Below, piece by piece: positions 24,476 to 58,780 of a stretch of DNA of 64,000 nucleotides. The position numbers were made by a program, and so were the translations under genes. Every line of letters begins with the position of its first letter. Within the stretch, counting starts at the first letter, position 1. Location: assembly GCA_000002445.1 (NCBI GenBank), contig CP000067.1, forward strand, positions 864,001-928,000, read 5' to 3'. Source of the DNA: Trypanosoma brucei. Its lineage: Eukaryota. The notes under the pieces were generated by a model that saw only the letters and a program-made list of their open reading frames with translations, had not been told where the DNA came from and did not search any database.

Positions 24476-24502
24476 CTACGATCACCTCTTTTCATCCAAA
24501 GC

Positions 24503-24527
24503 AAATAATAATAATAATAATAATAAG
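24503..24527. repeat. (AAT)8 microsatellite
   Basis: 'aataataataataataataataa' immediately upstream of the 22658..24475 gene start. Confidence 0.8.
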
Positions 24528-25457
24528 GTATGAACAACAGAATTAAAGGAACCGATAGAGATTCGAGCGAGAAGGAAGGGTTTAAAAAAAAAACATGTAC
24601 TGCCAAAACAGGCGCATGCGCGCGGCAACGAGTAAGTGCGAAAACACAGCTACAGAGTTGGCGGAGTGGGAGGCACGAAGAAATAAAACGGTGATCCACC
24701 TATCGGAAGTAAAACTAAAGGAAAAAATACACAGCCTTACAACATACTAGGTGCCCTTCCATCATGAGCGTTTCACACAACCTACTCATTACTGTTTGCT
24801 TTATTAGTATTAATGCGTCCCAGATGACCGCTGCAATGGTTCCGCCCCCTCAAAAAAAAAAAAAAAATCGTGCGGGCAACACAACACCACCAACACACAT
24901 ACACACTCACAGTCACCTGGTTTTTTTTCGCGGAAACGTGAAGGCGAAAAGTCACGCACTGTTTTCACCGACGACCCGCAAGTAATTTCAGCTGACAAAC
25001 ACCTGTGACGGGTTTTCCTCCGTCAGCGTCATATATTTATATTCGCGGGGCCCTCCACACCGTCGACAGCAAATCGAAAGAGGAAAGGCTCCCGCACCAG
25101 GCGACAAAACTGAGTGGTCGTGCGTGACCGAAATATAAAGGGAAATAGCAGATGTGAAAGCAACAGGTGTCAGTCCATTCTGGCGCTTGCGCTGTTCCAC
25201 ATCCGCAACTGTGCACAGGACAGGAAAGGAAACAAGACAGGAGGGTGATGAAAATAGAGGAAGGGCATGACCTGAACATCAGACTCTAACATACCACCAG
25301 CACGGTGAGCGTGTGTGCGGCTATGAGCGCGAAGTGGCATGTTGATGTACTGCATCATTTCAAGTGCCCAATTCACACCACCACCTCCTCCTCCTCATCC
25401 CTCGAACCCCTCCTTGAAAGCCCCCTCTCCCAAACTCCCGTGCAAAGTTTACCTGGG

Positions 25458-27791
25458 TCAGCTAATGCATATGATAGAACGATCCTTCACAGTCCAAAGA
25501 TCAGGACGTTGTTGCATCACCTGAAGAGCCCCGCCCGCCACATCGTACACCACAATGTCTAGCGAAGCAGCTTCGAAGGCTCTCCTCATGAGCGAGGCTG
25601 CAATGAGCGATCGATAACCTGTGGCGCAATAAACAACGATCTTGCGAATCCCCCGACATCCTGGCCGGCACTTGAGACCGGATGCAAGCGCGGCTTCGTA
25701 CATTCTATCAAGTATAATGCGTCCAAGCTCAGGGGAAGGCCAGCCGCCACAATGCACGTCTGCCTCTGGTGTCAGTTGCTGCGCTACTAAATCCAGGGCA
25801 GTTATGTGGCACAGGTCTCCCAAGGAAAGAAACACGCTACGCGTGTGCGAACCATTCCTGAACTCGTAAGGAGTCCGGCAGTCCAAGACAAGCGTGTCCT
25901 CTGCTGGTTCGATGAACTGCAATTTCTGATAGCAGTCAAGCCGCGACTGCGCAGAAGCGGTTGAATCGAATACCCATGTGAGGTGTCGCGGTAGATGCCG
26001 TGAGTCAACGGTCGCCGGAAGACTTGTTGTTACGTCCACACGGTTAAATACCTCCTTTTCCTGCCCGTCCACCGCGTGGACGCCACAAGGAGGGCACAGC
26101 TCCTGCAAAGTGAAGGTTTCAACGGAGGCACCTGGTGAAATCAGCTCCAGACGTTGACGCGCCAAGTGGCACTGCCTCTCGTTTGCACAGACAACAACTA
26201 CTGGCTGGAGGGGCTTCAACATGCACTGCAACCACAGCTCCGCCTTCTTCACACCGTAAGCTGCAGCAGGAAAGGTCATGGGAACGTTTACAGACCCCTT
26301 TAAATGCATTGTCACGTGATCCGCTGCACTGCGTATGTCCACAACAACAGGACCCGGGCAAGGGGAGGTAAGGGCGCAAGCCGGTGGCGGTAACAGACGG
26401 CGCCTTAGGAGTCCCTCCCCGCTTCCACCAAATGCAGATGGAACAGAAAGTAAATTCCATTCTCGAACATGCGAGACCAACAACGGCTTTGGTAACCGCG
26501 GGCGATCAAGCATGTGCTGGGCATATTTCTCAGGGTCTAAGATTTTGTCCATTACCGTGCGAGAGTGTTTCATCCTCTTCATATCCCCGATATGTACGGC
26601 CCAGTAAAGATCCAACTGGTGCGTAACATTACTGTAACCTCCGTGCGAAGGGAAGACAACAACGTGATCCCATGGCTGCACATGACCCGCGGCAGGATCA
26701 GGAAAGAAATACGCATCCCAAACTCGCTCCCTGAGAAAGCGCCGTGCCACCTCAGGGGCCGGCATTGCGCTTGTGTGTTGGAGATCCCCTTGAGGCTCGA
26801 GGGGAAGTGGAAAATCACCGAAGAATTCGTAACGAGGCACAGCATCTGTCCCCATCACAGTGCCCGTGAAGAGGGCGAGCAACTGTGCATCCAGGTGAAG
26901 TTCAACGACAAGACACTCCGGTGAAAAAGAAGGAACCGATATGCACCGCAAGTGTAGGCGTGAACTTAAATGGAGTGACAACCCGTCAGAGCAACCGTAC
27001 CCCGTCGACACAAAAGGCGTACCGCTCAGTAACTTTGCGGTTGGGTGATGCTCAAGTAGAGCCGCGTGCCCCATAGCAATATCGACGAAGCAGTGAGTGA
27101 GTACAATTCCGACCAACTGAACCTGCAGAAAGGCCAGATCCTCCTCGTAGCATGAAACATCCACCTGGGGGTCAATAATGGCAGCCGCTCGCTTGGAAAG
27201 ATCCGCCACAAGGAAGGATGCTGTACGTGTGGCTTCGTGCACATAGTGACGAAGCACGAATGGTACATCGTCAGGTGAAATATTCGGTTGGCAGTTGTGC
27301 AGTAACGCCAGTGGAAGAAAGTGATAGGACATAAACCTCTCAAGTTTTTCTACAGCGTCAGGGACCTCCTTGTCGTGTAGGCGGTGCACGACAATTATTC
27401 GTTTCTCAGCGACAACCGCACAACGCGGAGCGGTTATGAGCGGCTCACCTCGTCCTCGCTTGACCCCGCCATTTCTGCCGCGCAACGCACCGTCGCCCCC
27501 CACAACTGCTGTTGCTCCTGCCATCTCAGTCACTCCTTCCTTCAACCTTCCGTCATCAGCGACGGCCGCCGACTCCACGCACGAGTCATCATCGCCAAAC
27601 AGCTGGCTTTCCTCCATAACTGGGGCAATAAGCGTGGTAACCAGTCGCAATATTGGGGCGTAGCGATTGCGGTACTGCCGGAGGCGCCGCGTCACATCAG
27701 CGCAACGATTGTCGACAAGTGCTCCCGCCACCTCTAACAGTACCGGCTTAAACCGGGAGCCGTTCGCCCTCCCCGCTTCAGAAACCATCAC
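25458..27791 (-). CDS. metallo-beta-lactamase-like (glyoxalase II/ETHE1-like, possibly degenerate) plus two to three rhodanese-domain protein, 777 aa
   Basis: MBL-like 'VGIVLTHCFVDIAMGH' (non-canonical variant of HxHxDH) and 'VVVFPSHGG'. Rhodanese/CDC25-type active-site loops 'VVVCANERQCHLARQRL' and 'IVVYCATGYRSLIAASLMRR' (Cx5R), plus a third rhodanese-like 'LVLDCRTPYEFRNGSH'. Confidence 0.5.
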   Translation of the reverse strand: MMVSEAGRANGSRFKPVLLEVAGALVDNRCADVTRRLRQYRNRYAPILRLVTTLIAPVMEESQLFGDDDSCVESAAVADDGRLKEGVTEMAGATAVVGGDGALRGRNGGVKRGRGEPLITAPRCAVVAEKRIIVVHRLHDKEVPDAVEKLERFMSYHFLPLALLHNCQPNISPDDVPFVLRHYVHEATRTASFLVADLSKRAAAIIDPQVDVSCYEEDLAFLQVQLVGIVLTHCFVDIAMGHAALLEHHPTAKLLSGTPFVSTGYGCSDGLSLHLSSRLHLRCISVPSFSPECLVVELHLDAQLLALFTGTVMGTDAVPRYEFFGDFPLPLEPQGDLQHTSAMPAPEVARRFLRERVWDAYFFPDPAAGHVQPWDHVVVFPSHGGYSNVTHQLDLYWAVHIGDMKRMKHSRTVMDKILDPEKYAQHMLDRPRLPKPLLVSHVREWNLLSVPSAFGGSGEGLLRRRLLPPPACALTSPCPGPVVVDIRSAADHVTMHLKGSVNVPMTFPAAAYGVKKAELWLQCMLKPLQPVVVVCANERQCHLARQRLELISPGASVETFTLQELCPPCGVHAVDGQEKEVFNRVDVTTSLPATVDSRHLPRHLTWVFDSTASAQSRLDCYQKLQFIEPAEDTLVLDCRTPYEFRNGSHTRSVFLSLGDLCHITALDLVAQQLTPEADVHCGGWPSPELGRIILDRMYEAALASGLKCRPGCRGIRKIVVYCATGYRSLIAASLMRRAFEAASLDIVVYDVAGGALQVMQQRPDLWTVKDRSIICIS

Positions 27792-28240
27792 AACGCTTAT
27801 TACACTTCCTTTCCCGTACCTTCACCAATGGTGTAAATCAGTATAAACAGGTCAACCGAGTTGCGTTTGGAAGAGATAAGGGGGGTATCAGGCCCAAAGT
27901 TCTCTTTTAGTGGGTTTTCCAAAATGCATCAGACACCAACACATTTCAAAATAAAAAAACGTCAGAGGGAGAAATTTTATGTGCTTGGAATAAAATAGGG
28001 ACCTATTAGGTCTAACTCTAACCACATGCAGGGCATCAACTCAGGAGAGAGTTAAAAACAATAAACAGGCAGTAGTGAGCGGCAGCTGGTACCCTCCTAC
28101 AAAATCATATCTTCTGTCAACGGGGAAAAGTTAAAAAAAACGGCCCAAATGCAATATCCAACACACCTTTTACCCCTCAAGAGAGCGCGGGCCACTTGAC
28201 TTGTATGGGAAATTTTCTTCCGTGTGAGTTTATGTTTATG

Positions 28241-28287
28241 CACACACACACACACACACATCTATATATATATATATATATATATAC
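28241..28287. repeat. compound microsatellite (CA)10 plus (TA)12
   Basis: 'cacacacacacacacacacatctatatatatatatatatatatatata'. Confidence 0.85.
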
Positions 28288-28336
28288 TTTCACCTTTCTT
28301 CATTCCCAACTTTTCATTACGTTGCTCTAATCATCC

Positions 28337-30148
28337 CTAAAATTTTGCACTATCTCCCCTATCCCCCTGAGAGTTCTGATCTGTAGCAGGGTCCTTAGGC
28401 GTACACATGCCATCTACTTCGGCAAACACTCGGCGCCCAGCAGCCACACCAGTTGACTGACTGGATGCAATGCTTCCGCGCCGAAGCAACCGACGCGCCT
28501 TGTCTAATATCCGAGCAGCAACCTCTAGGGCGGCGTGAGTGTAACGGACGTCCAGTAGCAAATTAGTCTCATCCTCCCCTACTTGCGAATCCAGTGGTGG
28601 AGTATCCCCTACAACCCACTGCGACATAACTTGGGGGACATGTGGGGGAAGTTGAAAGAAGCAAAGCGCATCACGTGCCGTCGGCCTGGACGTCGGTTCC
28701 GCGTGCATCAGCTCAGCAACGAAGGCGGTAAGACGCTTCGAGTAGCCACGACGCTCAAGGAGATGCAGCGGAGGGTGCTGGCGCAGTTCGAGAAAGCCCG
28801 CGCCATGGTGGGGCAGGGGTTCACCTGACATAAGCTCAAAAAGTGAAATGCCGAAGGAAAACATGTCCCCTTCCTTGAGGTAACGTTTTTGGTTGAGCAT
28901 ATCCATGCACAGGTACCTACAATCACCCTCTTCCACACTAACCACACTAAGTTGGGTTGGGAAGCTCAGCGGCCCCGCGTCGGCCATGCTGTTGTTGTTC
29001 ACACCGGCCGTTGAGGAAGGAGCACTGAACAAGTTCCCGGTTTTCGCACCCGCAGCTGCAAAAGTTTTTCGGGGAAAACCATCATCATCCACAAAGACGC
29101 TGCACCCGAAATCACTAAGTTTATAATCCCCTGCCTCGTCTATCAGTACATTATCCGGCTTAAAATCCACATGCACAATGTTGGCGCTATGCAGAGCATC
29201 CAATGCTAGGGCCATGTGTCCGAAAAACACAAACAACTCACGTTCATCCCACACCTCACCGCGCTGCCGTCGTTGCTCCGCCCGCTCCGCCACGGATCCT
29301 CCCGAGCAATATTCTAACTGCAAGAACACCTGCGGCGCGTGACCCTCCTCCCACGAATCTAACAGTTGCACAACGTGCGGAAACCCTTTCGTGATGCTCA
29401 TCACAGCCCTCTCCCGCGCGAAACGTTGCCGTTGCTCCCGGCTCGCATTTGGTGGCGACGTCTTCACCGCAACAAGTGCACCCGTACCGGTTTCTTCATA
29501 AAGCGTTACCCTGCCGAAGGAACCAAAACCAAGCTCCTTCACCTCCTTGTAGTCAGTCAGAATGCGACGGTTGAAGATATTGGAAAATTCCGACTCCGCC
29601 TGAGAGTACTCCGGTTGATCTGGAGAATAGGGCATAAAAGGAAAACTGCTACCGACACGTGCCATCCAGTCACGCTGCGGGGAGTTCGGAGCTGAGTTCA
29701 TCAACGACATACCGCCGGTAGCTAAAGGCCCAAGGTGGGGGCGCAAGCAAGACCGCGTGGCCTCAGATGTACTACACTCAGGTGGTGGAAAAGGAACGGT
29801 ATCACTGGGATCGTCTAACCGCAGTGCGCTGAACTGTGAAAGCTCGCTGGATGGACGTTTTCTCGACGCCAAGTTACAGCGCCGGTCAGGTGCAGCACCA
29901 CGTTTGTGGGAGGCACCGCCACTAAGATACGTAATCGTCTGACCACCGCGTTCTTCATGTCTCGTACGGCGTTGTTTTGCAGGTGTTTCTGGTGCCCTCG
30001 GAAGCGCCCACGAGTTGAGGCGCTGCTGTGGGGGAACGGGTGTACACTGGCCATCCCGGGCAGTGCTGAAGTTAGTGTTGCTGTTACTTCCTTCTGCGGC
30101 CGTAAAGGGAACGACGGAGCCATCATTCCCCCCTTTAGGCGCCAACAT
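28337..30148 (-). CDS. WEE1: Wee1-like serine/threonine/tyrosine protein kinase with long N-terminal extension, 603 aa
   Basis: Kinase subdomains: 'GFGSFGRV' (Gly loop), 'VAVK', catalytic 'IVHVDFKPDNVLI' (Wee1-type HxDxKPxN), 'LSDFGCS' (DFG), 'GDCRYLCMDMLNQ' (Wee1-like activation segment). First about 190 aa are Ser/Pro-rich low complexity. Confidence 0.7.
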   Translation of the reverse strand: MLAPKGGNDGSVVPFTAAEGSNSNTNFSTARDGQCTPVPPQQRLNSWALPRAPETPAKQRRTRHEERGGQTITYLSGGASHKRGAAPDRRCNLASRKRPSSELSQFSALRLDDPSDTVPFPPPECSTSEATRSCLRPHLGPLATGGMSLMNSAPNSPQRDWMARVGSSFPFMPYSPDQPEYSQAESEFSNIFNRRILTDYKEVKELGFGSFGRVTLYEETGTGALVAVKTSPPNASREQRQRFARERAVMSITKGFPHVVQLLDSWEEGHAPQVFLQLEYCSGGSVAERAEQRRQRGEVWDERELFVFFGHMALALDALHSANIVHVDFKPDNVLIDEAGDYKLSDFGCSVFVDDDGFPRKTFAAAGAKTGNLFSAPSSTAGVNNNSMADAGPLSFPTQLSVVSVEEGDCRYLCMDMLNQKRYLKEGDMFSFGISLFELMSGEPLPHHGAGFLELRQHPPLHLLERRGYSKRLTAFVAELMHAEPTSRPTARDALCFFQLPPHVPQVMSQWVVGDTPPLDSQVGEDETNLLLDVRYTHAALEVAARILDKARRLLRRGSIASSQSTGVAAGRRVFAEVDGMCTPKDPATDQNSQGDRGDSAKF

Positions 30149-38578: not shown

Positions 38579-39130
38579 CTACAGTTCCTCTAAATACATA
38601 CACATCTCGTTCAAAAATGCTGCCCAGCTGAGAAGGGCAAAGAACTGGGCTATGAGACTCCCCAAGTAAACGGCGCAGGAAGTCACTAGCAGGTAAAACC
38701 CACAGCACAACTTGAAAACACCCTTCAGAGGCTTTTTGCCAGACCCTCCGTCGTCACTGCAGAAGCCAACGAAGTACTCCACAGACATAATTGCGGTGCA
38801 GAGTGCCATGAGTAGGAAGGCGATGAAAGAAAAGCATGGTGACAGGCACATGAGGAAAGCCATCCTCCCTCGTAAAATGGTAAGAATAACAACAATGAAA
38901 GCAATGAATCCAATGACAGAGGAAGTGACAACACTCCCGCGGACCAAATTGAAATACACAGTGTTCCTGAAGCATGAATCCTTACCTGTCGATGACGCTT
39001 GTCCCACCTCGAAAAGATAAATCGTTTTATAGCCCGTTGCACGGCCAAAAATAGGAGAGAAACACGCGCAACCAGCTAAAATAAAGGCACAGAGCGTCAG
39101 CAATAAAGAGAGTACGCCGAAAAAGATCAT
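38579..39130 (-). CDS. four-TM Cys-rich small membrane protein, paralogue a (claudin/PMP22/amastin-like topology; family assignment uncertain), 183 aa
   Basis: Four hydrophobic segments ('FGVLSLLLTLCAFILAGCA', 'VIGFIAFIVVILTIL', 'CFSFIAFLLMALCTAIM', 'LLVTSCAVYLGSLIAQFFALL'). Long first loop with Cys. Same architecture and position as paralogues b and c immediately upstream. Confidence 0.5.
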   Translation of the reverse strand: MIFFGVLSLLLTLCAFILAGCACFSPIFGRATGYKTIYLFEVGQASSTGKDSCFRNTVYFNLVRGSVVTSSVIGFIAFIVVILTILRGRMAFLMCLSPCFSFIAFLLMALCTAIMSVEYFVGFCSDDGGSGKKPLKGVFKLCCGFYLLVTSCAVYLGSLIAQFFALLSWAAFLNEMCMYLEEL

Positions 39131-39364
39131 GATATCCTTCTTGGTGAAACGACAACTGATAACGAGACTTGTCTTAAGAACTTACACAACTTCCAAATAG
39201 AGCTCAAGAAGAAGAGAAAAGTATTGTGAGTCACGTACAGCAAAGGATCAAAGCAGAGAGAGAGAGAGCGAAAAAGAAAGATTGGGTAACGGCAACAACA
39301 GAAGAAGTGAAACATGTAGAGAAACATGCATGAAAGCCAACGAGGCAATACCAAAAGTGGCCAG

Positions 39365-39799
39365 TCAGATGTTTGTGTAGCGCTCGTCCACAGGCCTGTC
39401 GAAATCCACATCCAACTCACAGATCCGCCAGTCCTCGTACGTATTGTCTGGAAGCACACGCCGAATAATGAGCGGAATGACACCTTCACGGAGCTCTTTC
39501 TGCGCAATAGTCAACGGGTCCGTCTCACCCTCCAATGCAACTAACACAGGAGCATTCATACTAATCTGCAATGCACGTGTCCCAAGGATGCGGGCCCTCT
39601 CGTATTTCGTCAGCACCGGAGCCGTCACGCGATCTCTGTCATCACGCCGTTTCGCTGAACCACGCACAGGTGCAGGACCAGACACAACAACACCCGCACC
39701 CGCATCACTTCGCTCATCGTCACTTTGCGCCACGCTCTCATGCTCATCACCAATGCTCAAACTCAGTCGATCAACTTCATCCTCATCACGCTCAGACAT
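39365..39799 (-). CDS. RPB6: DNA-directed RNA polymerase common subunit RPB6 (RPABC2/omega-like), copy 1, 144 aa
   Basis: '[66 protein letters not shown]' is the conserved RPB6 core. Acidic N-terminal tail 'SERDEDEVD'. Confidence 0.85.
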
Positions 39800-40573
39800 A
39801 TTTAGATTCCTTTACGGCTACGAACAGGTGCAATATCCGCACCTCTCCTCAACTGGCTAGTGGAAGTAGTAAGAGAAATAAGAAACGAAAACAAACAAGT
39901 GAAAGACAAAGAGGAGGAAAAAAAAGTATCAGCACAGAAAAGAGCAACGGGGATGGATCTGCACTAAAAGCAGAGGGGCGCTACATACGGTTAATTTTGT
40001 CGCACCCGATACACACACCCACTTGACTGGGTGGGTGGGGGGAGGGAGGAAATCCCTCCCCCTCTACGCTACCACCGCACGCACTCCCTAATAGTCGAAA
40101 AAAAAAAAATCAGAAACGGCCGTACGGACATTTATTCTCACAAAACCATCGCAACACGCCAGTCAGGTCAGGCACGAGTGGCCGCAAAAATAGAATGCAC
40201 TTCATAAAGTGAAAAATAACTGAACATAAAGAAATAGACACGAACGAAATTAAATACGGAAAAGTAATAACCAACCTTGGCTGATCAACTTGAAGAAACG
40301 AAAGTTGCTTAAATCAGCCACTAATGACAGGGGGAAAGGTAGTCGCTAAAAGTGTAGTATATAAATACGAAGGAATAGAACATTTAAAGAAAACACCAGA
40401 GTGGTGTGAACTGACCAAAATAAGAAATAACATATTCACGTCCGCTGTTGCACAAGGTGAAACTGGAAAGTAAGCACCACTTCATCGCATCTCCACGCGA
40501 CGCCGTGCAGAAAAAAATAAATAAATAAATGTAGTTCGTTCGAGCTGCCGTAATGCAACCGTATATGTGGCTA

Positions 40574-41104
40574 CTACAGGCAACAACCCGCGACAGAGCT
40601 GACAAGGAACAATACAGCAGTTACAACAATAAGGTAAAAACCGGCATCAACCGAAAAGTCACGCTCCTTAAACGGGGCGAAATCCTCGCGCAATTGATCA
40701 TCCCACTGACAAAACCCCTTTCCGTATCCAACAGTGATGAGTACGGCGCTCACCGAAGAAACAAGGAAGGATATGATGGAAAGTGGCGTGGATATGATTC
40801 GCAAACAACACAGTGGGATCTTGCAATTCGACAGAATAATGAAAACAAGAGCAGCAAAGCCTGTAAGCACTGAAATAAGGACACCAGCTTCAATTACCTG
40901 AAAGTATACACTGTACTCCTTACACGGGCTCTCATGCACCTTCGTTTGCTTCACTACATCATCAACCTTCTCCATGTAGTACCATAGGGTTTGGATCGCT
41001 TCCTTTGTTTCATTCTTCATGCGAAAAACGGGAAAAACCAACGCGCAAACAGCCGAAGCAACAGCGAATAGAGTAACAAGAGTTGTCAACCAACCGCAGC
41101 ACAT
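40574..41104 (-). CDS. four-TM Cys-rich small membrane protein, paralogue b, about 176 aa (start reassigned to internal Met)
   Basis: Starts 'MCCGWLTTLVTLFAVASAVCALVFPVFRMKNETKEAIQTLWYYMEK', aligning with paralogue c's N-terminus. The ORF track's 302-aa version (40574..41482) fuses it in-frame to a translation of the repeated RPB6 3'-flank, which also appears as stand-alone ORFs 39127..39507 and 42981..43256; that fusion is rejected. Confidence 0.5.
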   Translation of the reverse strand: MCCGWLTTLVTLFAVASAVCALVFPVFRMKNETKEAIQTLWYYMEKVDDVVKQTKVHESPCKEYSVYFQVIEAGVLISVLTGFAALVFIILSNCKIPLCCLRIISTPLSIISFLVSSVSAVLITVGYGKGFCQWDDQLREDFAPFKERDFSVDAGFYLIVVTAVLFLVSSVAGCCL

Positions 41105-41339
41105 TCTGAATATTCCTGGTGAAACGACAACTGATAACGAGGCTTGTCTTAAGAACTTACACAACTTCCAAATAGAGCTCAAGAAGAAGAGAAAAGTATT
41201 GTGAGTCACGTACAGCAAAGGATCAAAGCAGAGAGAGAGAGAGCGAAAAAGAAAGATTGGATAACGGCAACAACAGAAGAAGTGAAACATGTAGAGAAAC
41301 ATGCATGAAAGCCAACGAGGCAATACCAAAAGTGGCCAG

Positions 41340-41774
41340 TCAGATGTTTGTGTAGCGCTCGTCCACAGGCCTGTCGAAATCCACATCCAATTCACAGATC
41401 CGCCAGTCCTCGTACGTATTGTCTGGAAGCACACGCCGAATAATGAGCGGAATGACACCTTCACGGAGCTCTTTCTGCGCAATAGTCAACGGGTCCGTCT
41501 CACCCTCCAATGCAACTAACACAGGAGCATTCATACTAATCTGCAATGCACGTGTCCCAAGGATGCGGGCCCTCTCGTATTTCGTCAGCACCGGAGCCGT
41601 CACGCGATCTCTGTCATCACGCCGTTTCGCTGAACCACGCACAGGTGCAGGACCAGACACAACAACACCCGCACCCGCATCACTTCGCTCATCGTCACTT
41701 TGCGCCACGCTCTCATGCTCATCACCAATGCTCAAACTCAGTCGATCAACTTCATCCTCATCACGCTCAGACAT
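41340..41774 (-). CDS. RPB6: RPB6, copy 2, 144 aa (protein identical to copy 1)
   Basis: Identical translation to 39365..39799. Lies one repeat period (about 1975 bp) upstream. Confidence 0.85.
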
Positions 41775-42429
41775 ATTTAGATTCCTTTACGGCTACGAAC
41801 AGGTGCAATATCCGCACCTCTCCTCAACTGGCTAGTGGAAGTAGTAAGAGAAATAAGAAACGAAAACAAACAAGTGAAAGACAAAGAGGAGAAAAAAAAA
41901 GTATCAGCACAGAAAAGAGCAACGGGGATGGATCTGCACTAAAAGCAGAGGGGCGCTACATACGGTTAATTTCGTCGCACCACGCCTTATTATATAAATA
42001 TACCAGGTAAGAATAACCCTAAGTCACCACATAGCGTACAAAGTGGTAATTCTAACAGAAAGGGATGAACCAGAAACTTATCTTGCCCACAGCGTAAAAG
42101 AAATGTGAGGGAACACGAAACGGAGGAGAGTGACAACGAAGTTTAACAGCTGTTTTCGGAAACATCTACGTAAAATAAATAAATGAAATAAGTAAAATCG
42201 ATATCTGTATATTCTCGTGTTGCAGCTTAGGAAAGATGAACAAAAAACCTGGGAATAGGAAATACGTACAGATAGAAAAATAAAAATAAAAAACGTTCGT
42301 TCACGACCGCAATTGTATAGGAAAAAATAAGAAAATAGTCACTACCACGCCGCGTACCTGCAGAACCTTCAGTGTCATGGGAAGGAATGAGGCCGCTCGA
42401 GAATGTCAACGCAGCTGCTTAAATGTCCG

Positions 42430-42966
42430 CTAAAGGCAACAGTGCGTGATTGTGGTTAACAAGTATAGAGCGACAGCGGCGCAAAGAAGATATGAACCGA
42501 CATCAATTTTAAAACCACGTTCCTTGAACGGGGCGTACTTGTCGCGCAGTTTCGGATCGCCTTGGCAGTAACCTCTCAAATAACCGAGAGTAACGAGTCC
42601 AATACAAGTTATTGCACCCAGAAGAGAAAAAAAGACCAGCGATAAAGAGACAGCCTTCAAGTGCTTCATTTTTTTTCCGCAGGCAACCACACCACAGAGA
42701 AATAGAAGAGAAATGAGTCCAACTGCGGCAGCCGCTGCGACAGCGCCCATACTGACCTGAAAGTATACACTGTACTCGTAGCATTCACTCTCCCGGACAC
42801 TTGTCTTGCTTTCTGTACTCGCAGTTTTTTCCATGTAGTACCATAGGGTTTGGATCGCTTCCTTTGTTTCATTCTTCATGCGAAAAACGGGGAAGATAAT
42901 CGTACACACTGAAGTACTGGCACCCAGTAGAGTCATTAGTATTGTCAAACAGCCGCAACACAGCAT
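42430..42966 (-). CDS. four-TM Cys-rich small membrane protein, paralogue c, 178 aa
   Basis: 'MLCCGCLTILMTLLGASTSVCTIIFPVFRMKNETKEAIQTLWYYMEK...' is near-identical to paralogue b over the first about 45 aa, then diverges strongly (poly-Ala 'GAVAAAAAVG'). C-terminal '...THCCL' versus b 'VAGCCL'. Confidence 0.5.
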   Translation of the reverse strand: MLCCGCLTILMTLLGASTSVCTIIFPVFRMKNETKEAIQTLWYYMEKTASTESKTSVRESECYEYSVYFQVSMGAVAAAAAVGLISLLFLCGVVACGKKMKHLKAVSLSLVFFSLLGAITCIGLVTLGYLRGYCQGDPKLRDKYAPFKERGFKIDVGSYLLCAAVALYLLTTITHCCL

Positions 42967-43200
42967 GTTTCCTCCACCGGTTAAACGACAACTGATAACG
43001 AGGCTTGTCTTAAGAACTTACACAACTTCCAAATAGAGCTCAAGAAGAAGAGAAAAGTATTGTGAGTCACGTACAGCAAAGGATCAAAGCAGAGAGAGAG
43101 AGAGCGAAAAGGAAAGATTGGGTAACGGCAACAACAGAAGAAGTGAAACATGTAGAGAAACGTGCATGAAAGCCAACGAGGCAATACCAAAAGTGGCCAG

Positions 43201-43259
43201 TCAGATGTTTGTGTAGCGCTCGTCCACAGGCCTGTCGAAATCCACATCCAATTCACAGA
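43201..43259 (-). pseudogene. RPB6 3'-terminal remnant (last about 17 codons plus stop) at the edge of the tandem array
   Basis: 42978..43259 repeats the RPB6 downstream flank plus the RPB6 C-terminal codons ('...[16 protein letters not shown]'). Homology stops abruptly at 43259/43260. Confidence 0.5.
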
Positions 43260-43281
43260 TTGGCGTTACCGTAAACGATAG

Positions 43282-45546
43282 CTAACTAACCCAGTTGTTG
43301 GTGCGCTGCAGCACTTCGAGGATCTTCTCCATGTAAACGCGAAACTCCTCGGGACGCATATTTCCATCACTTCCGCTGAAATTTTGTCCCTGAATAATCG
43401 AATGCCCGCCGTACGATTGGTCCCCGTTCGCAACTACAATACGGTCACCACTGCGCTCCTCGTTAAGGTCTTTGCCATTTTTTGGCCTTCTTTGATGGAC
43501 GCAGTACGGTTTTTTAACTAAGAAATGAGCCCGTGAGTCCAAGACGGTTGGCTCGGTAGGGGGTGGCTGGAGTGTTGCGAGAAAAGTCTCTCGGGGCTTA
43601 TGTTCGTAGTCGTAGCGTAAAAGCGCGAGTTGGGTGCGGAGGCCACTAAGTTCGCTTTCCATTGCGTTGTCGCCATAGACACGATAGACTTCATCCAGTA
43701 TGTACTTCCGCTCCTCGGGGGTAAGGTCGTAGCGACGCCGATCCGCCCATAAGAGCAGCTCATCAAGCCATGATGCTTTGAATGTGTTGCAAGAGCGTGT
43801 TGCATACCGATACAGTTCCAGTAGCTTGGGGGACTCAGTGCGCAAGTATACCTTCATCAGCCGGGACACGATGCGGGAACTGAATGGAATCCCTTTTTCA
43901 CTGACAGCCCGAGAAACCTCGCCTGCACCACCACCGGGATCTGTAGAATTGTGAGCATGTTGAAGGAGAGCACAGAAATAAACCTCCTCATTAGAATGGG
44001 TCAGGAGTAACTCACGACATGGTCGAAGGTATTCCTCTTCAAAGCGAGGAACCTGACATTTCGACAAGGCAAGAAGAGAAGTTTGCAGCAAATATTCATT
44101 GCCACGGCGGTCCTCCACGCGGGTGGCGTCGGACAGCGCGTCCTTAGCCTGCACAAAAGCGCCGAGAGCCACATCTGCCGCCCTCATCTCTCCTGCTGCA
44201 ATAAGTACAATGCTCCATACGCTAATGCTTAGCTTCTCCCCACAGCGTAGCATTGCTCGTGCGGTGAAAACAATCTTTCTGTTATCCTTTGCCGCATGCA
44301 ATACAGTGAGAAGTTGAAAGAAGAGGTAGTCGGAAACGCCCTCCATTATTTTCTCACATTCACCAACTGCACGGAAATCTTGCCCATCTGCGGCTGTTCC
44401 GGATCGCATCGCACGCGAGCGATGCCCCAAAAGAACATCACAGCCCACACTCTCCACACCAAGGCGGGACCCAACTTCATCAAAGTAATGTAACGCCTCG
44501 TGGACGTGCTGCCCCGCCCTGCAGGTTGCAATAAGGGTAGCGTAGAACCATTGTTCTTCGGATATTACCCCATGATCAACGCGAGTAGCGCCATTTGCAC
44601 TTCCGCCGTAGGAGACCTCACCACTACCAGTGTCACTGGTGGTGATACTCAAATTGGAGCCGCCTTCTTCCGTCAAGTTCGTGGTGCCACATCCTCTACG
44701 AAGGAAGCCGCGTCGAAGGCAGAAGCGAAAGAAAAGCATTTCCCCCTCGTCTCCGCATGATGCATACTGCACAAACCGCCTAACTGTGTATATGGCATCT
44801 TGCACACTGAGCTCCCGGGAGGCCTCGGGGTATAGAACTGCAATGTACTCCTTAAATATGTACGCGGCATCTTGAAGGGCTTGTTTAGCATCAACAGAGC
44901 GCGCTTTTTCAAGATGTGCGACAATGCAAACACAGCGCCAGAAGGTGCGGGCCAACGAAAATGAACTCATCACCTCCCAGCCAAGCGAGGGTTCGTGCTG
45001 GAGGTGCTTCATGCAGTGGGCTCCCAAACGGACCAAATCACTTGTACTTCCGAGGCTGTAGGCACTGTCCACAACGGAATCGGAGACGGCGAAGCTACCC
45101 GCCACGCTATTAGCCTCAGCCATAGAGGAAGAGCACACGAGGTTCGCACGACCATAGTAAATTGCAAGACAGAGTTCGTGCAGACCCGCCACGTGTGCCA
45201 ACTGCCCATACTCACGCACACACTTGTAGCTCACCTCCGCTAACCGTCGGCTAAGAAGCTCAGAAACGTGTGCGTGGACTGCCGCGGTCTGACTTGGGTC
45301 AAAATTGGTTCGACTGAAACGATGTAAACGGCGACTGAACTCCTCTGTTGAGAGGAAGGTTAATTCTTTTGCCATGTGTCTGTACGCCTCCGTGCTTGTG
45401 TCGACATGAACCATTGTTTTTGCGCCCACACGCGCTGCTAACGGGGTGACTCCAACGCCGCTAACACTCCTGATGGTATTTTTCCCGCTTCCATACTTGA
45501 AAACTGGCAGCACACTCGCGACGTGTGTAAAGAACCGACTCCTCAT
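43282..45546 (-). CDS. hypothetical alpha-helical protein, 754 aa
   Basis: Long ORF in PTU orientation. Leu/Ala-rich helical composition throughout. No motif recognised. Confidence 0.45.
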   Translation of the reverse strand: MRSRFFTHVASVLPVFKYGSGKNTIRSVSGVGVTPLAARVGAKTMVHVDTSTEAYRHMAKELTFLSTEEFSRRLHRFSRTNFDPSQTAAVHAHVSELLSRRLAEVSYKCVREYGQLAHVAGLHELCLAIYYGRANLVCSSSMAEANSVAGSFAVSDSVVDSAYSLGSTSDLVRLGAHCMKHLQHEPSLGWEVMSSFSLARTFWRCVCIVAHLEKARSVDAKQALQDAAYIFKEYIAVLYPEASRELSVQDAIYTVRRFVQYASCGDEGEMLFFRFCLRRGFLRRGCGTTNLTEEGGSNLSITTSDTGSGEVSYGGSANGATRVDHGVISEEQWFYATLIATCRAGQHVHEALHYFDEVGSRLGVESVGCDVLLGHRSRAMRSGTAADGQDFRAVGECEKIMEGVSDYLFFQLLTVLHAAKDNRKIVFTARAMLRCGEKLSISVWSIVLIAAGEMRAADVALGAFVQAKDALSDATRVEDRRGNEYLLQTSLLALSKCQVPRFEEEYLRPCRELLLTHSNEEVYFCALLQHAHNSTDPGGGAGEVSRAVSEKGIPFSSRIVSRLMKVYLRTESPKLLELYRYATRSCNTFKASWLDELLLWADRRRYDLTPEERKYILDEVYRVYGDNAMESELSGLRTQLALLRYDYEHKPRETFLATLQPPPTEPTVLDSRAHFLVKKPYCVHQRRPKNGKDLNEERSGDRIVVANGDQSYGGHSIIQGQNFSGSDGNMRPEEFRVYMEKILEVLQRTNNWVS

Positions 45547-51104: not shown

Positions 51105-51785
51105 CTAGATTTTATTCCAGGCCACAATGTCCATTGACTGTACGGCATCTCCGAAAGACATGATCATCTCCTCCAGGTCATCTCCAGACACCTTATCGTC
51201 CTCAATGACAACCAACTGTTGCAGCTTCTTAACTCCGAACGCAATGGGTACCAGTTTGTGGTCACCCCACAGTAGACCGTCTCTCTTAATTGCATGGAGT
51301 TCCGTGGCAAGCTTTTGCAAATCCACTGTATCATCCCACGGCTTGATGTCAAACAGGATTGATGACTTTGCAATGATAACCTTCTTTGTGCTCTTGGCTG
51401 CGGCATCCTTCTTCTTCTTCGCCTCCAGGGCTGCAAGCTCCTCCTCCGTGGTCTCACCGAAGAGATCGATGTCATCGTCGTCGGCCTCAGCAGCCTTCCT
51501 TGCTGGGGTAGCAGCGGGAGCAGCAGCGGGGGCAGCAGCGGGGGCAGCGACAGGAGCGGCAACAGGGGGCGTGATCTTCACGGGGGCACCCCAGGCAGTG
51601 CGCTCGGCCTCGGTAAAAGAGGCGATATTCTTCACCCAGCGGAATACATTCGTATTGTCTCCACCGAGCAGATCGTTGAATGCCTTTACATCCTCCTCGG
51701 AGGGCTTCACGCCACCCAAAAATAGTTTCCCCTTAAGCTTCTCCTCCAGCTTCCCGCTCTTCACATTGACGTCCTTGATCGACAT
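51105..51785 (-). CDS. EF1B: translation elongation factor 1-beta (EF-1B guanine-nucleotide exchange subunit), copy 1, about 226 aa (start at internal Met 'MSIKDVNVKSG')
   Basis: C-terminal GEF domain 'KSSILFDIKPWDDTVDLQKLATELHAIKRDGLLWGDHKLVPIAFGVKKLQQLVVIEDDKVSGDDLEEMIMSFGDAVQSMDIVAWNKI'. Acidic linker 'DDDDIDLFGETTEEELAALEAKKKK'. A polyY tract falls inside the 35-aa upstream ORF extension, so that extension is treated as 5'UTR. Confidence 0.85.
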   Translation of the reverse strand: MSIKDVNVKSGKLEEKLKGKLFLGGVKPSEEDVKAFNDLLGGDNTNVFRWVKNIASFTEAERTAWGAPVKITPPVAAPVAAPAAAPAAAPAATPARKAAEADDDDIDLFGETTEEELAALEAKKKKDAAAKSTKKVIIAKSSILFDIKPWDDTVDLQKLATELHAIKRDGLLWGDHKLVPIAFGVKKLQQLVVIEDDKVSGDDLEEMIMSFGDAVQSMDIVAWNKI

Positions 51786-51892
51786 GTCCTTCCCGCTTCG
51801 ATTACACACAAATGAGCACTTGTTGTGGCATTTCACAATAGAAAAAAAAGCAAAGGGTATGAAAACGGGAGAATACATATGATCACACATCC

Positions 51893-51932
51893 GAAAGGCA
51901 GAAAGGGGAAAAAAAAGAAGGAAAGGGAAAGG
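51893..51932 (-). promoter_or_regulatory. polypyrimidine tract upstream of EF-1beta copy 1 (duplicated at about 53950..53989)
   Basis: +strand 'gaaaggcagaaaggggaaaaaaaagaaggaaagggaaagg'. A further (A)8 run lies inside the discarded N-terminal ORF extension. Confidence 0.45.
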
Positions 51933-53161
51933 ACCTGAACTCCGGGCAGTACTTGTACGTGCGCACTAGACATTGGCAGGTGCATCGACAGGGAAGGCAT
52001 CCAACGTACGAAGGACAAGCTTTGTTTGCTCCAATAGCGCCGCAACAGCTGCACGCAACGCCCGCTCCTGCGTGGCACATAGCCTAGCAAACACCGTCGA
52101 TCGCGCACTATCATCAGCCCATAGCTGAACCTCTCTCGATGTGCCAGGGACAGGTGGTTCTACGCGCAATACCTGCAACATGATGGATGCCACCTCAGGG
52201 TTCGGAAGGGGGAGCCGCAGCACACACTGCAGCAAATCGTGGTCCCCACCCCCTGCATCGGGATCCATACGCCTCATCAGCTTGCGAGTCACACTGATGA
52301 CAAACAGGTAACCAACTACACCTTACGTCACCTCCAGCCCAAAGACACAACAGAGAAGGGAGAAGGTTGGCTGCAGGGAACCACTCATGGCCACTTTCGA
52401 GGGGAGTGATACGGTGGGTAACAGGAAGAGGCTCACACCAAAAAGTGGGGCAAAAGGCACCAAAAACATGGGGGCAACCGCAGTTCCCCCCTTCGTATAA
52501 ACCGCAACCTGGGGCAACCAAGGAAAAGACCCTGCAGATCCTCAGCAAGAGCCAAAATACTGAAAGCGGGCGCGGCATTGATAAACTGCATTCGGTAGTG
52601 TATGTTTTCTAACCTGTGGCCGCATGGGCCTTTGTGCAGGACTAGAAGTGTGGTCTAGCAATACGAGAAACAAACGTCATTTACCACCTTCATTATTGTT
52701 GGGGTACAATAGACGGCACAAGAAAACCTTGTTGAATGTACCTCACACCTTTGCCGAACAGAATGGTCAGTGGGAGAAAAGGCTAGCTGAGTACCTGCTG
52801 TTGTGGTCCTTTTTGACGCGGCCTCACCTCACCCTCTGAATGGAGCGCCGTGTCACCCTAGTATACCTGACTAACATGCACGCAAGTTTAATAAATAATT
52901 CGACAGAGGGAAAGGAGCGGAATATTCCAAACAGCATAACAGTACATGGGGCAGCAGCACGAGGTGGTGTCGAACCTCCACCACCACCCATCTACGACAT
53001 ACACACACATGCACACAGATGCAAACAACTTATCGGATTAGCAGCATTATATAATATGGAGAATAAAACCGAAAAAAAAAAATACCATTTCTCCTATTTT
53101 CCTCGTATCCCTTAGACCATTTAACTCTTCATCCTATCCCCCTTGCCTCTGGAATGGGCGA

Positions 53162-53842
53162 CTAGATTTTATTCCAGGCCACAATGTCCATTGACTGTAC
53201 GGCATCTCCGAAAGACATGATCATCTCCTCCAGGTCATCTCCAGACACCTTATCGTCCTCAATGACAACCAACTGTTGCAGCTTCTTAACTCCGAACGCA
53301 ATGGGTACCAGTTTGTGGTCACCCCACAGTAGACCGTCTCTCTTAATTGCATGGAGTTCCGTGGCAAGCTTTTGCAAATCCACTGTATCATCCCACGGCT
53401 TGATGTCAAACAGGATTGATGACTTTGCAATGATAACCTTCTTTGTGCTCTTGGCTGCGGCATCCTTCTTCTTCTTCGCCTCCAGGGCTGCAAGCTCCTC
53501 CTCCGTGGTCTCACCGAAGAGATCGATGTCATCGTCGTCGGCCTCAGCAGCCTTCTTTGCTGGGGTAGCAGCGGGAGCAGCAGCGGGGGCAGCAGCGGGG
53601 GCAGCGACAGGAGCGGCAACAGGGGGCGTGATCTTCACGGGGGCACCCCAGGCAGTGCGCTCGGCCTCGGTAAAAGAGGCGATATTCTTCACCCAGCGGA
53701 ATACATTCGTATTGTCTCCACCGAGCAGATCGTTGAATGCCTTTACATCCTCCTCGGAGGGCTTCACGCCACCCAAAAATAGTTTCCCCTTAAGCTTCTC
53801 CTCCAGCTTCCCGCTCTTCACATTGACGTCCTTGATCGACAT
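53162..53842 (-). CDS. EF1B: EF-1beta, copy 2 (one conservative difference R/K in the Ala/Pro-rich linker)
   Basis: Identical to copy 1 except 'ATPARKAAE' versus 'ATPAKKAAE'. Lies 2057 bp (one repeat period) upstream. Confidence 0.85.
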   Translation of the reverse strand: MSIKDVNVKSGKLEEKLKGKLFLGGVKPSEEDVKAFNDLLGGDNTNVFRWVKNIASFTEAERTAWGAPVKITPPVAAPVAAPAAAPAAAPAATPAKKAAEADDDDIDLFGETTEEELAALEAKKKKDAAAKSTKKVIIAKSSILFDIKPWDDTVDLQKLATELHAIKRDGLLWGDHKLVPIAFGVKKLQQLVVIEDDKVSGDDLEEMIMSFGDAVQSMDIVAWNKI

Positions 53843-54632
53843 GTCCTTCCCGCTTCGATTACACACAAATGAGCACTTGTTGTGGCATTTCACAATAGAA
53901 AAAAAAGCAAAGGGTATGAAAACGGGAGAATACATATGATCACACATCCGAAAGGCAGAAAGGGGAAAAAAAAGAAGGAAAGGGAAAGGACCTGAACTCC
54001 GGGCAGTACTTGTACGTGCGCACTAGACATTGGCAGGTGCATCGACAGGGAAGGCATCCAACGTACGAAGGACAAGCTTTGTTTGCTCCAATAGCGCCGC
54101 AACAGCTGCACGCAACGCCCGCTCCTGCGTGGCACATAGCCTAGCAAACACCGTCGATCGCGCACTATCATCAGCCCATAGCTGAACCTCTCTCGATGTG
54201 CCAGGGACAGGTGGTTCTACGCGCAATACCTGCAACATGATGGATGCCACCTCAGGGTTCGGAAGGGGGAGCCGCAGCACACACTGCAGCAAATCGTGGT
54301 CCCCACCCCCTGCATCGGGATCCATACGCCTCATCAGCTTGCGAGTCACACTGATGACAAACAGGTAACCAACTACACCTTACGTCACCTCCAGCCCAAA
54401 GACACAACAGAGAAGGGAGAAGGTTGGCTGCAGGGAACCACTCATGGCCACTTTCGAGGGGAGTGATACGGTGGGTAACAGGAAGAGGCTCACACCAAAA
54501 AGTGGGGCAAAAGGCACCAAAAACATGGGGGCAACCGCAGTTCCCCCCTTCGTATAAACCGCAACCTGGGGCAACCAAGGAAAAGACCCTGCAGATCCTC
54601 AGCAAGAGCCAAAATACTGAAAGCGGGCGCGG

Positions 54633-58612: not shown

Positions 58613-58780
58613 CCTTACGGGCTGGGTTGTCGGGCTAAACTACGCACGTCGATCGGATGCACACTCACACGAGTGCTACTCCTCCCCCGCCTTGCTTTCG
58701 TGTCCCTTAGTTATCGCTCTTGTCTGACGACTTCGATGCTACCTACACACTTGCTAGTAAGCCAGTAACACCTAATTACT

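What the first reader, a model, noticed from the sequence alone, without database searches (positions are those of the whole stretch)
38579..43259. RPB6 / four-TM membrane-protein tandem array: homogenised RPB6 alongside rapidly diverging membrane-protein paralogues, plus a terminal RPB6 remnant
Unit structure. Two full repeat units of about 1.97 kb each carry an RPB6 gene and a small Cys-rich four-TM protein gene. A third four-TM paralogue lies just downstream, and a 280-bp partial unit ends in an RPB6 C-terminal remnant (42978..43259).

What differs. The RPB6 halves are near-identical at the nucleotide level, with identical proteins, which suggests concerted evolution or recent duplication. 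The four-TM genes inside the same units differ after roughly the first 45 codons; for example, paralogue c has a poly-Ala loop 'GAVAAAAAVG' where b has 'IEAGVLISVLTG'.

Why it matters. This within-unit contrast is the signature of diversifying selection on a surface or membrane family, or of a segmental gene-conversion boundary. Paralogues b and c start with N-terminal Cys pairs (MCCGW / MLCCGC) and c ends in Cys-Cys-Leu, which are candidate S-acylation sites. The family could not be assigned by eye; no clean amastin signature C-[IVL]-[TS]-[LF]-[WF]-G was found.
Basis: seen in the sequence. Interest (0 to 1): 0.6.

Follow-up and report, generated by a model that had tools for sequence, protein, structure and literature searches.

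The report
Trypanosome amastin/RPB6 tandem gene array
This is the known Trypanosoma brucei chromosome-4 cluster in which three amastin-type four-helix membrane-protein genes alternate with two copies of the RNA-polymerase subunit gene RPB6; gene conversion keeps the RPB6 copies identical while the amastin copies have drifted apart under purifying selection.

Summary
Two 869-nt blocks (RPB6 plus both flanks) are 99.3% identical. A 282-nt third partial block carries the last 19 RPB6 codons. The three interleaved four-TM genes are only 25-47% identical, and the 3' flanks of b and c do not align.

The window is Trypanozoon (T. brucei group) chromosome 4. Three independent assemblies show the same order, so this is not an assembly artefact.

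The four-TM proteins are amastins. Paralogues b and c pass Pfam PF07344 and are annotated as amastin. Paralogue a, annotated 'uncharacterized / T. brucei spp.-specific', is a divergent member (hhalign 99.1%).

An amastin/RPB6 array also occurs in T. vivax, T. cruzi and T. melophagium. Leishmania major and Bodo saltans have a single RPB6 and no amastin at the syntenic site.

RPB6 copies are 99.5-100% identical within species and about 73% identical between species. Both copies share strain-specific variants. This is concerted evolution.

For b versus c, dN/dS is about 0.24, so diversifying selection is not supported.

In T. vivax, T. cruzi and T. melophagium whole units are homogenised; in T. 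brucei only the RPB6 block is. The separate 3' flanks fit the published stage-specific expression of the two annotated amastins.

The genes are known. The locus analysis and the assignment of a are modestly new.

The parts
43282..45546 (-). Upstream flanking gene (754 aa, no Pfam domain). It is the conserved neighbour of RPB6 in all kinetoplastids examined.
   Evidence: Positional counterparts are 732 aa in T. vivax, 925 aa in L. major and 923 aa in Bodo saltans; homology of these neighbours was not tested.
43201..43260 (-). RPB6 remnant: the last 19 codons plus the stop codon ([19 protein letters not shown]). It starts 22 nt after the stop of the 754-aa gene.
42967..43200 (-). Third copy of the 234-nt RPB6-to-amastin intergenic region. 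It contains polypyrimidine tracts and forms the 5' flank of amastin c.
   Evidence: 98.2% identical to copy 1.
42430..42966 (-). Amastin paralogue c (178 aa; starts MLCCGC, ends HCCL). GenBank AAZ10943 / UniProt Q585J8; inferred to be Tb927.4.3520.
   Evidence: Pfam Amastin 37.2 bits. 100% identical to P0002, named 'Amastin'. Groups with the T. congolense protein P0124 at 92% bootstrap.
41982..42429 (-). Unique 3' flank of c (presumed 3'UTR). It does not align with the 3' flank of b.
41113..41981 (-). Homogenised RPB6 block, copy 2. The RPB6 coding sequence is 41340..41774 (144 aa).
   Evidence: 99.3% identical to copy 1. Pfam RNA_pol_Rpb6. Carries strain-specific variants shared with copy 1.
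40574..41104 (-). Amastin paralogue b (176 aa; starts MCCGW, ends GCCL). GenBank AAZ10941 / UniProt Q585K0; inferred to be Tb927.4.3500.
40007..40573 (-). Unique 3' flank of b (presumed 3'UTR).
39138..40006 (-). Homogenised RPB6 block, copy 1. The RPB6 coding sequence is 39365..39799 (144 aa).
38579..39130 (-). Divergent terminal amastin-like paralogue a (183 aa). It lacks the N-terminal CC, the C-terminal CCL and the QTLWY motif. GenBank AAZ10939 / UniProt Q585K2, annotated 'uncharacterized' and 'T. brucei spp.-specific'.
   Evidence: Pfam Amastin only 17.9 bits, below the cutoff. phmmer against 1.84 billion proteins hits only amastins: T. congolense 3.4e-13, T. vivax 3.2e-9, b 5.2e-7. hhalign 99.1%, E 1.8e-18. 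Four hydrophobic segments.

Best explanation
This is an old tandem array that arose in the genus Trypanosoma. An amastin-type tetraspan membrane-protein gene became linked to the housekeeping gene RPB6, and the pair was amplified.

Non-reciprocal recombination between array members (gene conversion or unequal exchange) keeps the RPB6 copies, their processing signals and the amastin 5' flank identical.

In T. vivax, T. cruzi and T. melophagium the whole unit is homogenised. In the T. brucei/T. congolense lineage the amastin coding regions and 3' flanks escaped homogenisation and diverged under purifying selection into three distinct genes: c, b and the degenerate terminal copy a.

Once the amastin segments had diverged, the only long tract of homology left was the 869-nt RPB6 block. 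Conversion is now confined to it, which produces the sharp identity/divergence boundaries.

Trypanosome genes are transcribed polycistronically and regulated mainly through 3'UTRs. The unique 3' flanks therefore allow paralogue-specific, life-cycle-stage-specific expression, while all three genes share one 5' splice-acceptor region.

What is shown: the anatomy, family membership, cross-species distribution, concerted evolution and dN/dS. What is inferred: conversion as the molecular mechanism, UTR-driven subfunctionalisation, and the gene-ID mapping to the published expression data.
For: 1. Sharp block limits with 99.3% identity inside and about 40% outside.
2. RPB6 nucleotide identity is 99.5-100% within species and about 73% between species, with third codon positions at about 44%. 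The interleaved architecture is shared by T. brucei, T. vivax, T. cruzi and T. melophagium. L. major and Bodo saltans have one RPB6 and no amastin at the syntenic site.
3. Across three T. brucei-group assemblies, both RPB6 blocks carry the same strain-specific SNPs (alignment columns 163, 172, 173) and the same indels.
4. The b/c split is old. dS is 1.86, and c groups with the T. congolense protein at 92% bootstrap. The two RPB6-bearing units therefore predate that speciation, yet their RPB6 copies are identical.
5. dN/dS is 0.24 for b versus c.
6. Whole units are homogenised in T. vivax (2.0 kb, 97.7%), T. melophagium (99.3%) and T. cruzi (2.6 kb, 99%).
7. Published expression differs between the two annotated amastins. 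Tb927.4.3520 peaks in salivary-gland forms (PMC8483307). Tb927.4.3500 is 10-fold higher in procyclic forms and is bound by RBP10 (PMC5568443). An 'amastin-like protein' mRNA, given no gene ID in the passages read, is bound by ZC3H20/21 (bioRxiv 10.1101/646547).
Against: - dS for b versus c is near saturation, so dN/dS is only a rough figure. Short episodes of positive selection cannot be excluded.
- Independent re-duplication of RPB6 in each lineage is less parsimonious but not formally excluded.
- The strain-level evidence for conversion is thin: 3 clustered SNPs (possibly a single event) plus indels in simple-sequence runs.
- The mapping of b and c to Tb927.4.3500 and Tb927.4.3520 is inferred from gene order and consecutive GenBank accessions. 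It was not read from an annotation.
- No expression data were found for a.
- The 5' and 3' ends of the mRNAs were not mapped.
Confidence: 0.8

Rival explanations
1. Diversifying (positive) selection on a surface-protein family drives b, c and a apart, while RPB6 is simply conserved.
For: - Amastins are surface proteins.
- b and c are only 47% identical, whereas the array copies in other species are 75-100% identical.
- The first extracellular loop varies between b and c at c residues 48-60.
Against: - dN/dS is 0.24 overall, and pN is below pS in every 20-codon window.
- The most divergent stretch is TM2, the cytoplasmic loop and TM3, not the exposed loops.
- The non-coding 3' flanks of b and c have diverged beyond alignment (about 40% identity), as expected from age and neutral drift.
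- Protein conservation cannot explain RPB6 identity at synonymous and flanking non-coding sites.
Confidence: 0.1
2. A recent one-off duplication or insertion of an 869-nt RPB6 cassette into an older amastin array, with no ongoing conversion.
For: - The blocks have only 6 mismatches in 869 nt and sharp edges.
- The RPB6 coding remnant upstream of c is not seen in T. vivax.
Against: - The same amastin/RPB6 alternation is present in four Trypanosoma lineages.
- The block sits at the equivalent place in each unit and ends about 8 nt before each amastin ATG.
- Strain-specific variants are shared by both copies.
Confidence: 0.08
3. An assembly artefact: a collapsed or falsely duplicated repeat.
For: Near-identical repeats of about 0.9 kb are a typical source of assembly errors.
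Against: - Three different assemblies (the window, T. b. equiperdum CM010675.1 and T. b. gambiense FN554967.1) show identical order and spacing with independent polymorphisms.
- Each block is anchored by unique flanking sequence.
Confidence: 0.02

Closest known systems
Amastin surface glycoprotein family (Pfam PF07344; alpha, beta, gamma and delta subfamilies of Jackson 2010, PMC2794310)
   Same: - About 180 aa with four hydrophobic segments.
- A conserved Cys in each extracellular loop, and the T-L-W core of the signature.
- Tandem, partly dimorphic arrays.
- b and c pass the Pfam threshold.
   Different: - They lack both signature cysteines and the Gly (C-x-T-L-W-G-x-x-x-x-C becomes x-Q-T-L-W-Y).
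- They have N-terminal CC and C-terminal CC[LAI] motifs, which the four T. cruzi reference amastins lack.
- BLAST against T. cruzi beta and delta amastins is not significant (best E 0.002).
- The locus lies next to RPB6, between Jackson's ama34C and ama34B slots, and is not one of his listed loci.
- The partner gene is RPB6, not tuzin.
[quoted passage not shown]
delta-amastin/tuzin alternating arrays of T. cruzi and Leishmania
   Same: An amastin gene alternates with an unrelated gene in a head-to-tail array within a polycistron, and the units are homogenised (PMC3598723).
   Different: The interleaved gene is an essential RNA-polymerase subunit. In T. brucei only that partner is homogenised, and the amastins are not.
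Claudin / PMP22 / MP20 / TARP-gamma tetraspan superfamily
   Different: - No sequence-level match: there are no Pfam claudin or PMP22 hits at E<=1, and all Foldseek E-values are above 0.09.
- The first extracellular loop of the model is low-confidence.
Concerted evolution of tandem genes in trypanosomatids (established knowledge, not tested here)
   Same: Within-species identity including synonymous and flanking sites, between-species divergence, and diverged copies at the edge of the array.
   Different: The converted tract is a small island (869 nt) inside a unit whose other half has fully diverged. This gives an unusually clean internal control.

Membership tests
Amastin (PF07344) | Pfam HMM score above the gathering cutoff (27.2 bits) | tested here: met
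   b scores 81.2 bits (E 1e-22) and c scores 37.2 bits (E 3.6e-9). Paralogue a fails on its own, at 17.9 bits; see the next row.
Amastin (PF07344) | Paralogue a: significant homology to recognised amastins | tested here: met
   - phmmer against 1.84 billion proteins returns only amastins: T. congolense 3.4e-13, T. vivax 3.2e-9, b 5.2e-7.
- hhalign against the RPB6-linked amastin alignment gives 99.1%, E 1.8e-18 over 163 columns.
- The Pfam score alone is below the cutoff.
Amastin (PF07344) | About 180 residues with four transmembrane segments | tested here: met
   Kyte-Doolittle analysis finds four hydrophobic segments in a, b and c. The AF2 models show four long helices.
Amastin (PF07344) | Amastin signature in extracellular loop 1 (C-[IVLYF]-[TS]-[LF]-[WF]-G-x-[KRQ]-x-[DENT]-C) | tested here: not met
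   b and c read A-I-Q-T-L-W-Y-Y-M-E-K, and a reads Y-K-T-I-Y-L-F. Aligned with T. cruzi beta and delta amastins, only T-L-W is kept; both signature Cys and the Gly are missing.
alpha-amastin subfamily | An N-terminal extension with extra TM helices, at the ama28 locus (Jackson 2010) | tested here: not met
   The proteins are 176-183 aa with four TM segments. The locus is on chromosome 4 beside RPB6, not at the chromosome-11 (ama28) position.
delta / proto-delta-amastin subfamily | Association with tuzin, at the ama34B slot between a Ser/Thr kinase and myosin IB | tested here: not met
   The kinase (28337..30148) and myosin (16014..19517) are in the window. tblastn finds no amastin between them. 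The array lies 8-10 kb upstream of the kinase and alternates with RPB6.
beta-amastin subfamily | The ama30 locus, plus sequence affinity to T. cruzi beta1/beta2 | tested here: inconclusive
   The flanking genes here differ from those of ama30. BLAST against T. cruzi beta1/beta2 gives E>=0.002. The NJ tree puts the RPB6-linked genes in their own clade, but the basal nodes are weak. Only four OCR-derived reference sequences were available.
RPB6 / RPABC2 (PF01192) | Pfam domain and orthology to the kinetoplastid shared polymerase subunit | tested here: met
   43.6 bits against a cutoff of 26. 79-83% amino-acid identity to T. vivax, T. grayi, T. theileri and T. cruzi RPB6. Synteny is conserved back to Bodo saltans.
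Concerted evolution by gene conversion | Paralogues are more alike than orthologues although the duplication predates speciation; derived variants are shared between paralogues; tract boundaries are sharp | tested here: met
   Whether the molecular event is conversion or unequal crossing-over cannot be tested with these tools.
Claudin/PMP22/TARP tetraspan superfamily | Claudin-type four-helix fold | tested here: inconclusive
S-acylated (palmitoylated) membrane protein | Thioester-linked acyl groups on Cys residues next to the membrane | not testable with these tools
   Only the motif could be examined. The N-terminal CC and C-terminal CC[LAI] are conserved in the non-terminal copies of T. brucei, T. 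congolense and T. vivax; in T. cruzi and T. melophagium only the C-terminal CCA is conserved.

The most novel reading that the evidence does not exclude
The RPB6-linked genes may form a fifth, genus-Trypanosoma-specific amastin subfamily. It would have been missed by the alpha-delta classification because it lacks the signature cysteines and is invisible to BLAST with canonical amastins.

On this reading the subfamily has been physically locked to RPB6 since the origin of the genus. It carries conserved terminal Cys-Cys (probable dual S-acylation) motifs. In T. brucei it has split into three stage-specialised genes, one of them (a) mis-annotated as species-specific.
Probability: 0.45. Interest if true: 0.45.

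Novelty: new member of a known kind. Interest (0 to 1): 0.33.

Why it matters
- It corrects the annotation of paralogue a ('T. brucei spp.-specific / uncharacterized'), which is a divergent amastin.
- It shows that African trypanosomes and T. cruzi carry a conserved amastin lineage. Jackson 2010 does not mention these T. brucei chromosome-4 genes, and the T. cruzi copies are clearly different from the beta and delta sequences published by Kangussu-Marcolino et al. 2013.
- It offers a clean natural example of a gene-conversion island, with its own internal control, in a polycistronic genome.
- Practically, the two RPB6 copies and the shared amastin 5' flank will confuse read mapping, RNAi and CRISPR designs. 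The unique 3' flanks are the handles for paralogue-specific work.
- None of this changes a major concept.

Tried and rejected
- Structure of a: the AF2 model had pLDDT 58.8, too poor to use for a fold search.
- The afdb50 fold library was unavailable.
- The PDB sequence search with the family profile gave nothing relevant.
- Rfam and Tandem Repeats Finder on the window both returned nothing.
- The look-up of the T. congolense locus through P0124 found nothing on record, so the T. congolense gene order is unknown.
- The UA(U)6 RBP10 motif was tried as a way to tell b from c. Both 3' flanks have one copy, so it is uninformative.
- The T. brucei palmitoylome paper could not be found in the library.
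- No paper in the library contains both 'amastin' and 'RPB6'.
- The idea that the T. cruzi RPB6-linked genes are the published beta1/beta2 amastins was rejected. The sequences are clearly different.

Full report
OBSERVATION

All genes in the region lie on the minus strand. In the direction of transcription the order is:
- a 754-aa gene (45546..43282);
- a 60-nt RPB6 remnant (43260..43201, reading [19 protein letters not shown]), followed by a 234-nt intergenic region;
- four-TM gene c (42966..42430, 178 aa) and its unique 3' flank (42429..41982);
- RPB6 block 2 (41981..41113; coding sequence 41774..41340);
- four-TM gene b (41104..40574, 176 aa) and its unique 3' flank (40573..40007);
- RPB6 block 1 (40006..39138; coding sequence 39799..39365);
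- four-TM gene a (39130..38579, 183 aa).

Self-BLAST gives 99.3% identity over 869 nt between the two RPB6 blocks. The partial third copy is 98.2% identical over 282 nt. The 5' part of c matches b at only 87.7% over 512 nt.

A column-by-column alignment shows identity of 0.98-1.00 inside the blocks. It falls to about 0.4 in the central amastin coding region and in the b and c 3' flanks. The block ends about 8 nt upstream of each amastin ATG.

Only the 869-nt RPB6 block is a high-identity repeat, not a 1.97-kb unit. Both b and c end in CCL. And b and c keep an identical stretch at c residues 25-47 (b 24-46) and a conserved second loop.

ORGANISM AND REALITY OF THE ARRAY

Paralogues b, c and a and RPB6 are 100% identical to Trypanozoon proteins. 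The TREU927 accessions AAZ10939 to AAZ10943 run consecutively as a, RPB6, b, RPB6, c.

The same gene order and spacing occur in T. b. equiperdum CM010675.1 (L001) and T. b. gambiense FN554967.1 (L002). Each is 99.16% identical to the window, so the window comes from a third genome. An assembly artefact is excluded for practical purposes.

FAMILY

Pfam assigns b (81.2 bits) and c (37.2 bits) to Amastin PF07344, whose cutoff is 27.2. Paralogue a scores 17.9 bits, below the cutoff. No claudin or PMP22 model hits at E<=1.

Paralogue a is annotated 'uncharacterized' and 'T. brucei spp.-specific protein'. However, phmmer against 1.84 billion proteins finds only amastins: T. congolense 3.4e-13, T. 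vivax 3.2e-9 and b 5.2e-7. hhalign against an alignment of the other RPB6-linked amastins gives 99.1% probability and E 1.8e-18 over 163 columns.

All three proteins have four hydrophobic segments. Paralogue a has lost the N-terminal CC, the C-terminal CCL and the QTLWY motif.

When aligned with the published T. cruzi beta1, beta2, delta and delta-Ama40 sequences (PMC3598723 supplement), the family keeps only T-L-W of the amastin signature. It lacks both signature cysteines. Pairwise BLAST to those references is not significant (best E 0.002).

[quoted passage not shown] Later papers do call Tb927.4.3520 'amastin' and Tb927.4.3500 'amastin-like'.

ORTHOLOGOUS LOCI

RPB6 was used as the anchor.
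- T. vivax: 732-aa gene, amastin, RPB6, amastin, RPB6, a divergent third amastin-like gene (an uncalled ORF at L004 12465..13037), then a 527-aa gene.
- T. cruzi: at least five units of [191-aa amastin-like, RPB6, 180-aa amastin-like], ending in RPB6 and a divergent 179-aa amastin.
- T. melophagium: RPB6, 178 aa, RPB6, 178 aa, RPB6, then a divergent 137-aa copy.
- L. major and Bodo saltans: the synteny is kept (ribosomal L13, x, a gene of about 925 aa, RPB6), but there is one RPB6 and tblastn finds no amastin.

Among the taxa sampled here, the RPB6-linked amastin array is therefore found only in Trypanosoma. In every species the 3'-most copy is the divergent one.

In the window, the array sits between the flanks of Jackson's ama34C slot (EF-1beta genes at 51-54 kb) and his ama34B slot (kinase at 28 kb, myosin at 16-19 kb). 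It is not one of his listed loci.

CONCERTED EVOLUTION

RPB6 coding sequences are 99.5-100% identical within each species. Between species they are about 73% identical, or about 44% at third codon positions.

Across the three T. brucei-group assemblies, both RPB6 blocks share strain-specific SNPs (alignment columns 163, 172, 173) and indels (153/154, 813-816). About ten other variants are private to one copy in one assembly.

The flanking amastins b and c are old. dS is 1.86, and c groups with the T. congolense protein at 92% bootstrap, with b outside that pair at 86%. The RPB6-bearing units therefore predate that speciation, yet the RPB6 copies are still identical. This is the classical signature of gene conversion or unequal exchange.

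SELECTION ON THE AMASTINS

For b versus c, dN is 0.44, dS is 1.86 and dN/dS is 0.24. Comparisons of a with b or c are saturated. No 20-codon window has pN above pS.

The most divergent part is TM2, the cytoplasmic loop and TM3. Codons 22-51 have low pS (0.15-0.23), which suggests a small, older conversion patch reaching in from the shared 5' flank.

Diversifying selection is not supported.

In T. vivax the whole 2.0-kb unit is 97.7% identical, in T. melophagium 99.3%, and in T. cruzi the 2.6-kb unit is 99% identical.

In T. vivax and T. cruzi the two array isoforms are identical except for two patches: the N-terminus with TM1, and TM2, the loop and TM3. In the central patch synonymous divergence is near saturation (pS 0.7-0.97). 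The array is thus dimorphic, as Jackson described for other amastin subfamilies.

MECHANISM (BEST EXPLANATION, CONFIDENCE ABOUT 0.8)

An ancestral Trypanosoma RPB6-amastin pair was amplified, and recombination homogenises the array members.

In the T. brucei/T. congolense lineage the amastin coding regions and 3' flanks escaped homogenisation and diverged under purifying selection. That left the RPB6 block as the only long homology tract. Conversion is now confined to it, which self-reinforces the boundaries.

All three amastins keep the same 234-nt upstream region with its polypyrimidine tracts, which is presumed to hold the trans-splice acceptor and 5'UTR. Their 3' flanks are unique.

Trypanosome mRNA levels are set mainly through 3'UTRs (established knowledge). 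This fits the published differences. Tb927.4.3520 peaks in salivary-gland forms. Tb927.4.3500 is 10-fold higher in procyclic forms and bound by RBP10, and is raised in proline-grown procyclics. An 'amastin-like protein' mRNA, with no gene ID in the passages read, is bound by ZC3H20/21.

The mapping b = Tb927.4.3500 and c = Tb927.4.3520 is inferred from gene order and accession order.

PROTEIN FUNCTION

A claudin/PMP22-like tetraspan fold is a reasonable lead, not a demonstrated membership.

The CC termini are conserved in T. brucei b and c, T. congolense and T. vivax, and as CCA in T. cruzi and T. melophagium. Under the standard amastin topology they would be cytosolic and next to the membrane, so S-acylation is plausible but untested.

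NOVELTY

The genes are annotated and are used in transcriptomic papers. The kind of phenomenon, concerted evolution in a trypanosomatid tandem array, is well known.

The modestly new points are these:
- paralogue a is assigned to the amastin family;
- an RPB6-linked amastin lineage, distinct from the published beta and delta sequences, is present in all four Trypanosoma species examined;
- the conversion island is cleanly delimited;
- T. brucei differs from the other species in homogenising only the RPB6 block.

No paper in the searchable library links amastin and RPB6.

Noticed in passing
L004 8810..11180 (T. vivax) and L006 4786..7129 (T. cruzi): Within otherwise homogenised array units, the two amastin isoforms differ only in two patches: the N-terminus with TM1, and TM2, the cytoplasmic loop and TM3. 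In the central patch synonymous divergence is near saturation (pS 0.7-0.97). One isoform has Cys residues in the cytoplasmic loop and the other has few or none. This looks like a dimorphism maintained against conversion.
   Followed up: partly
window 43201..43281: The RPB6 remnant starts 22 nt after the stop codon of the 754-aa gene. That gene's 3' flank is therefore the same sequence as the RPB6 3' flank, and the two mRNAs probably share nearly identical 3'UTRs.
   Followed up: no
L002 7816..8550 (T. b. gambiense) and window 40574..41482: The DAL972 gene model for amastin b is 244 aa (P0126). It is extended at the N-terminus through the RPB6-amastin intergenic region. The same read-through ORF (302 aa from a TTG start) exists in the window. 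This is probably an annotation artefact.
   Followed up: partly
L006 3974..4423 (T. cruzi) and L009 237..632 (T. melophagium): One T. cruzi 180-type amastin copy is frameshifted after about 70 codons (149 aa). The first T. melophagium RPB6 copy, near the contig end, is frameshifted in its C-terminal part (131 aa). These are either pseudogenised array members or sequencing errors.
   Followed up: no
window 51105..53947: A tandem pair of 261-aa EF-1beta-type genes (Pfam EF1_GNE on the copy scanned). This corresponds to the flank of Jackson's ama34C slot.
   Followed up: partly
window 57728..62454: Three tandem 294-aa ORFs about 1.9 kb apart; the copy scanned is a PP1-type Ser/Thr phosphatase (Metallophos plus STPPase_N).
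   Followed up: no
window 19517..28337: The ama34B slot (between the Ser/Thr kinase at 28337..30148 and myosin at 16014..19517) holds three genes: 777 aa with a rhodanese domain, 605 aa and 675 aa. tblastn finds no amastin there, which agrees with Jackson's statement that proto-delta-amastin was lost in T. brucei. I did not determine which gene, if any, is the tuzin he mentions.
   Followed up: partly
window 4001..8000: An AT-rich stretch (GC 0.36-0.40, against about 0.50 elsewhere). It contains a uracil phosphoribosyltransferase gene (5336..6058) and an EF-hand protein gene (6948..7532).
   Followed up: no
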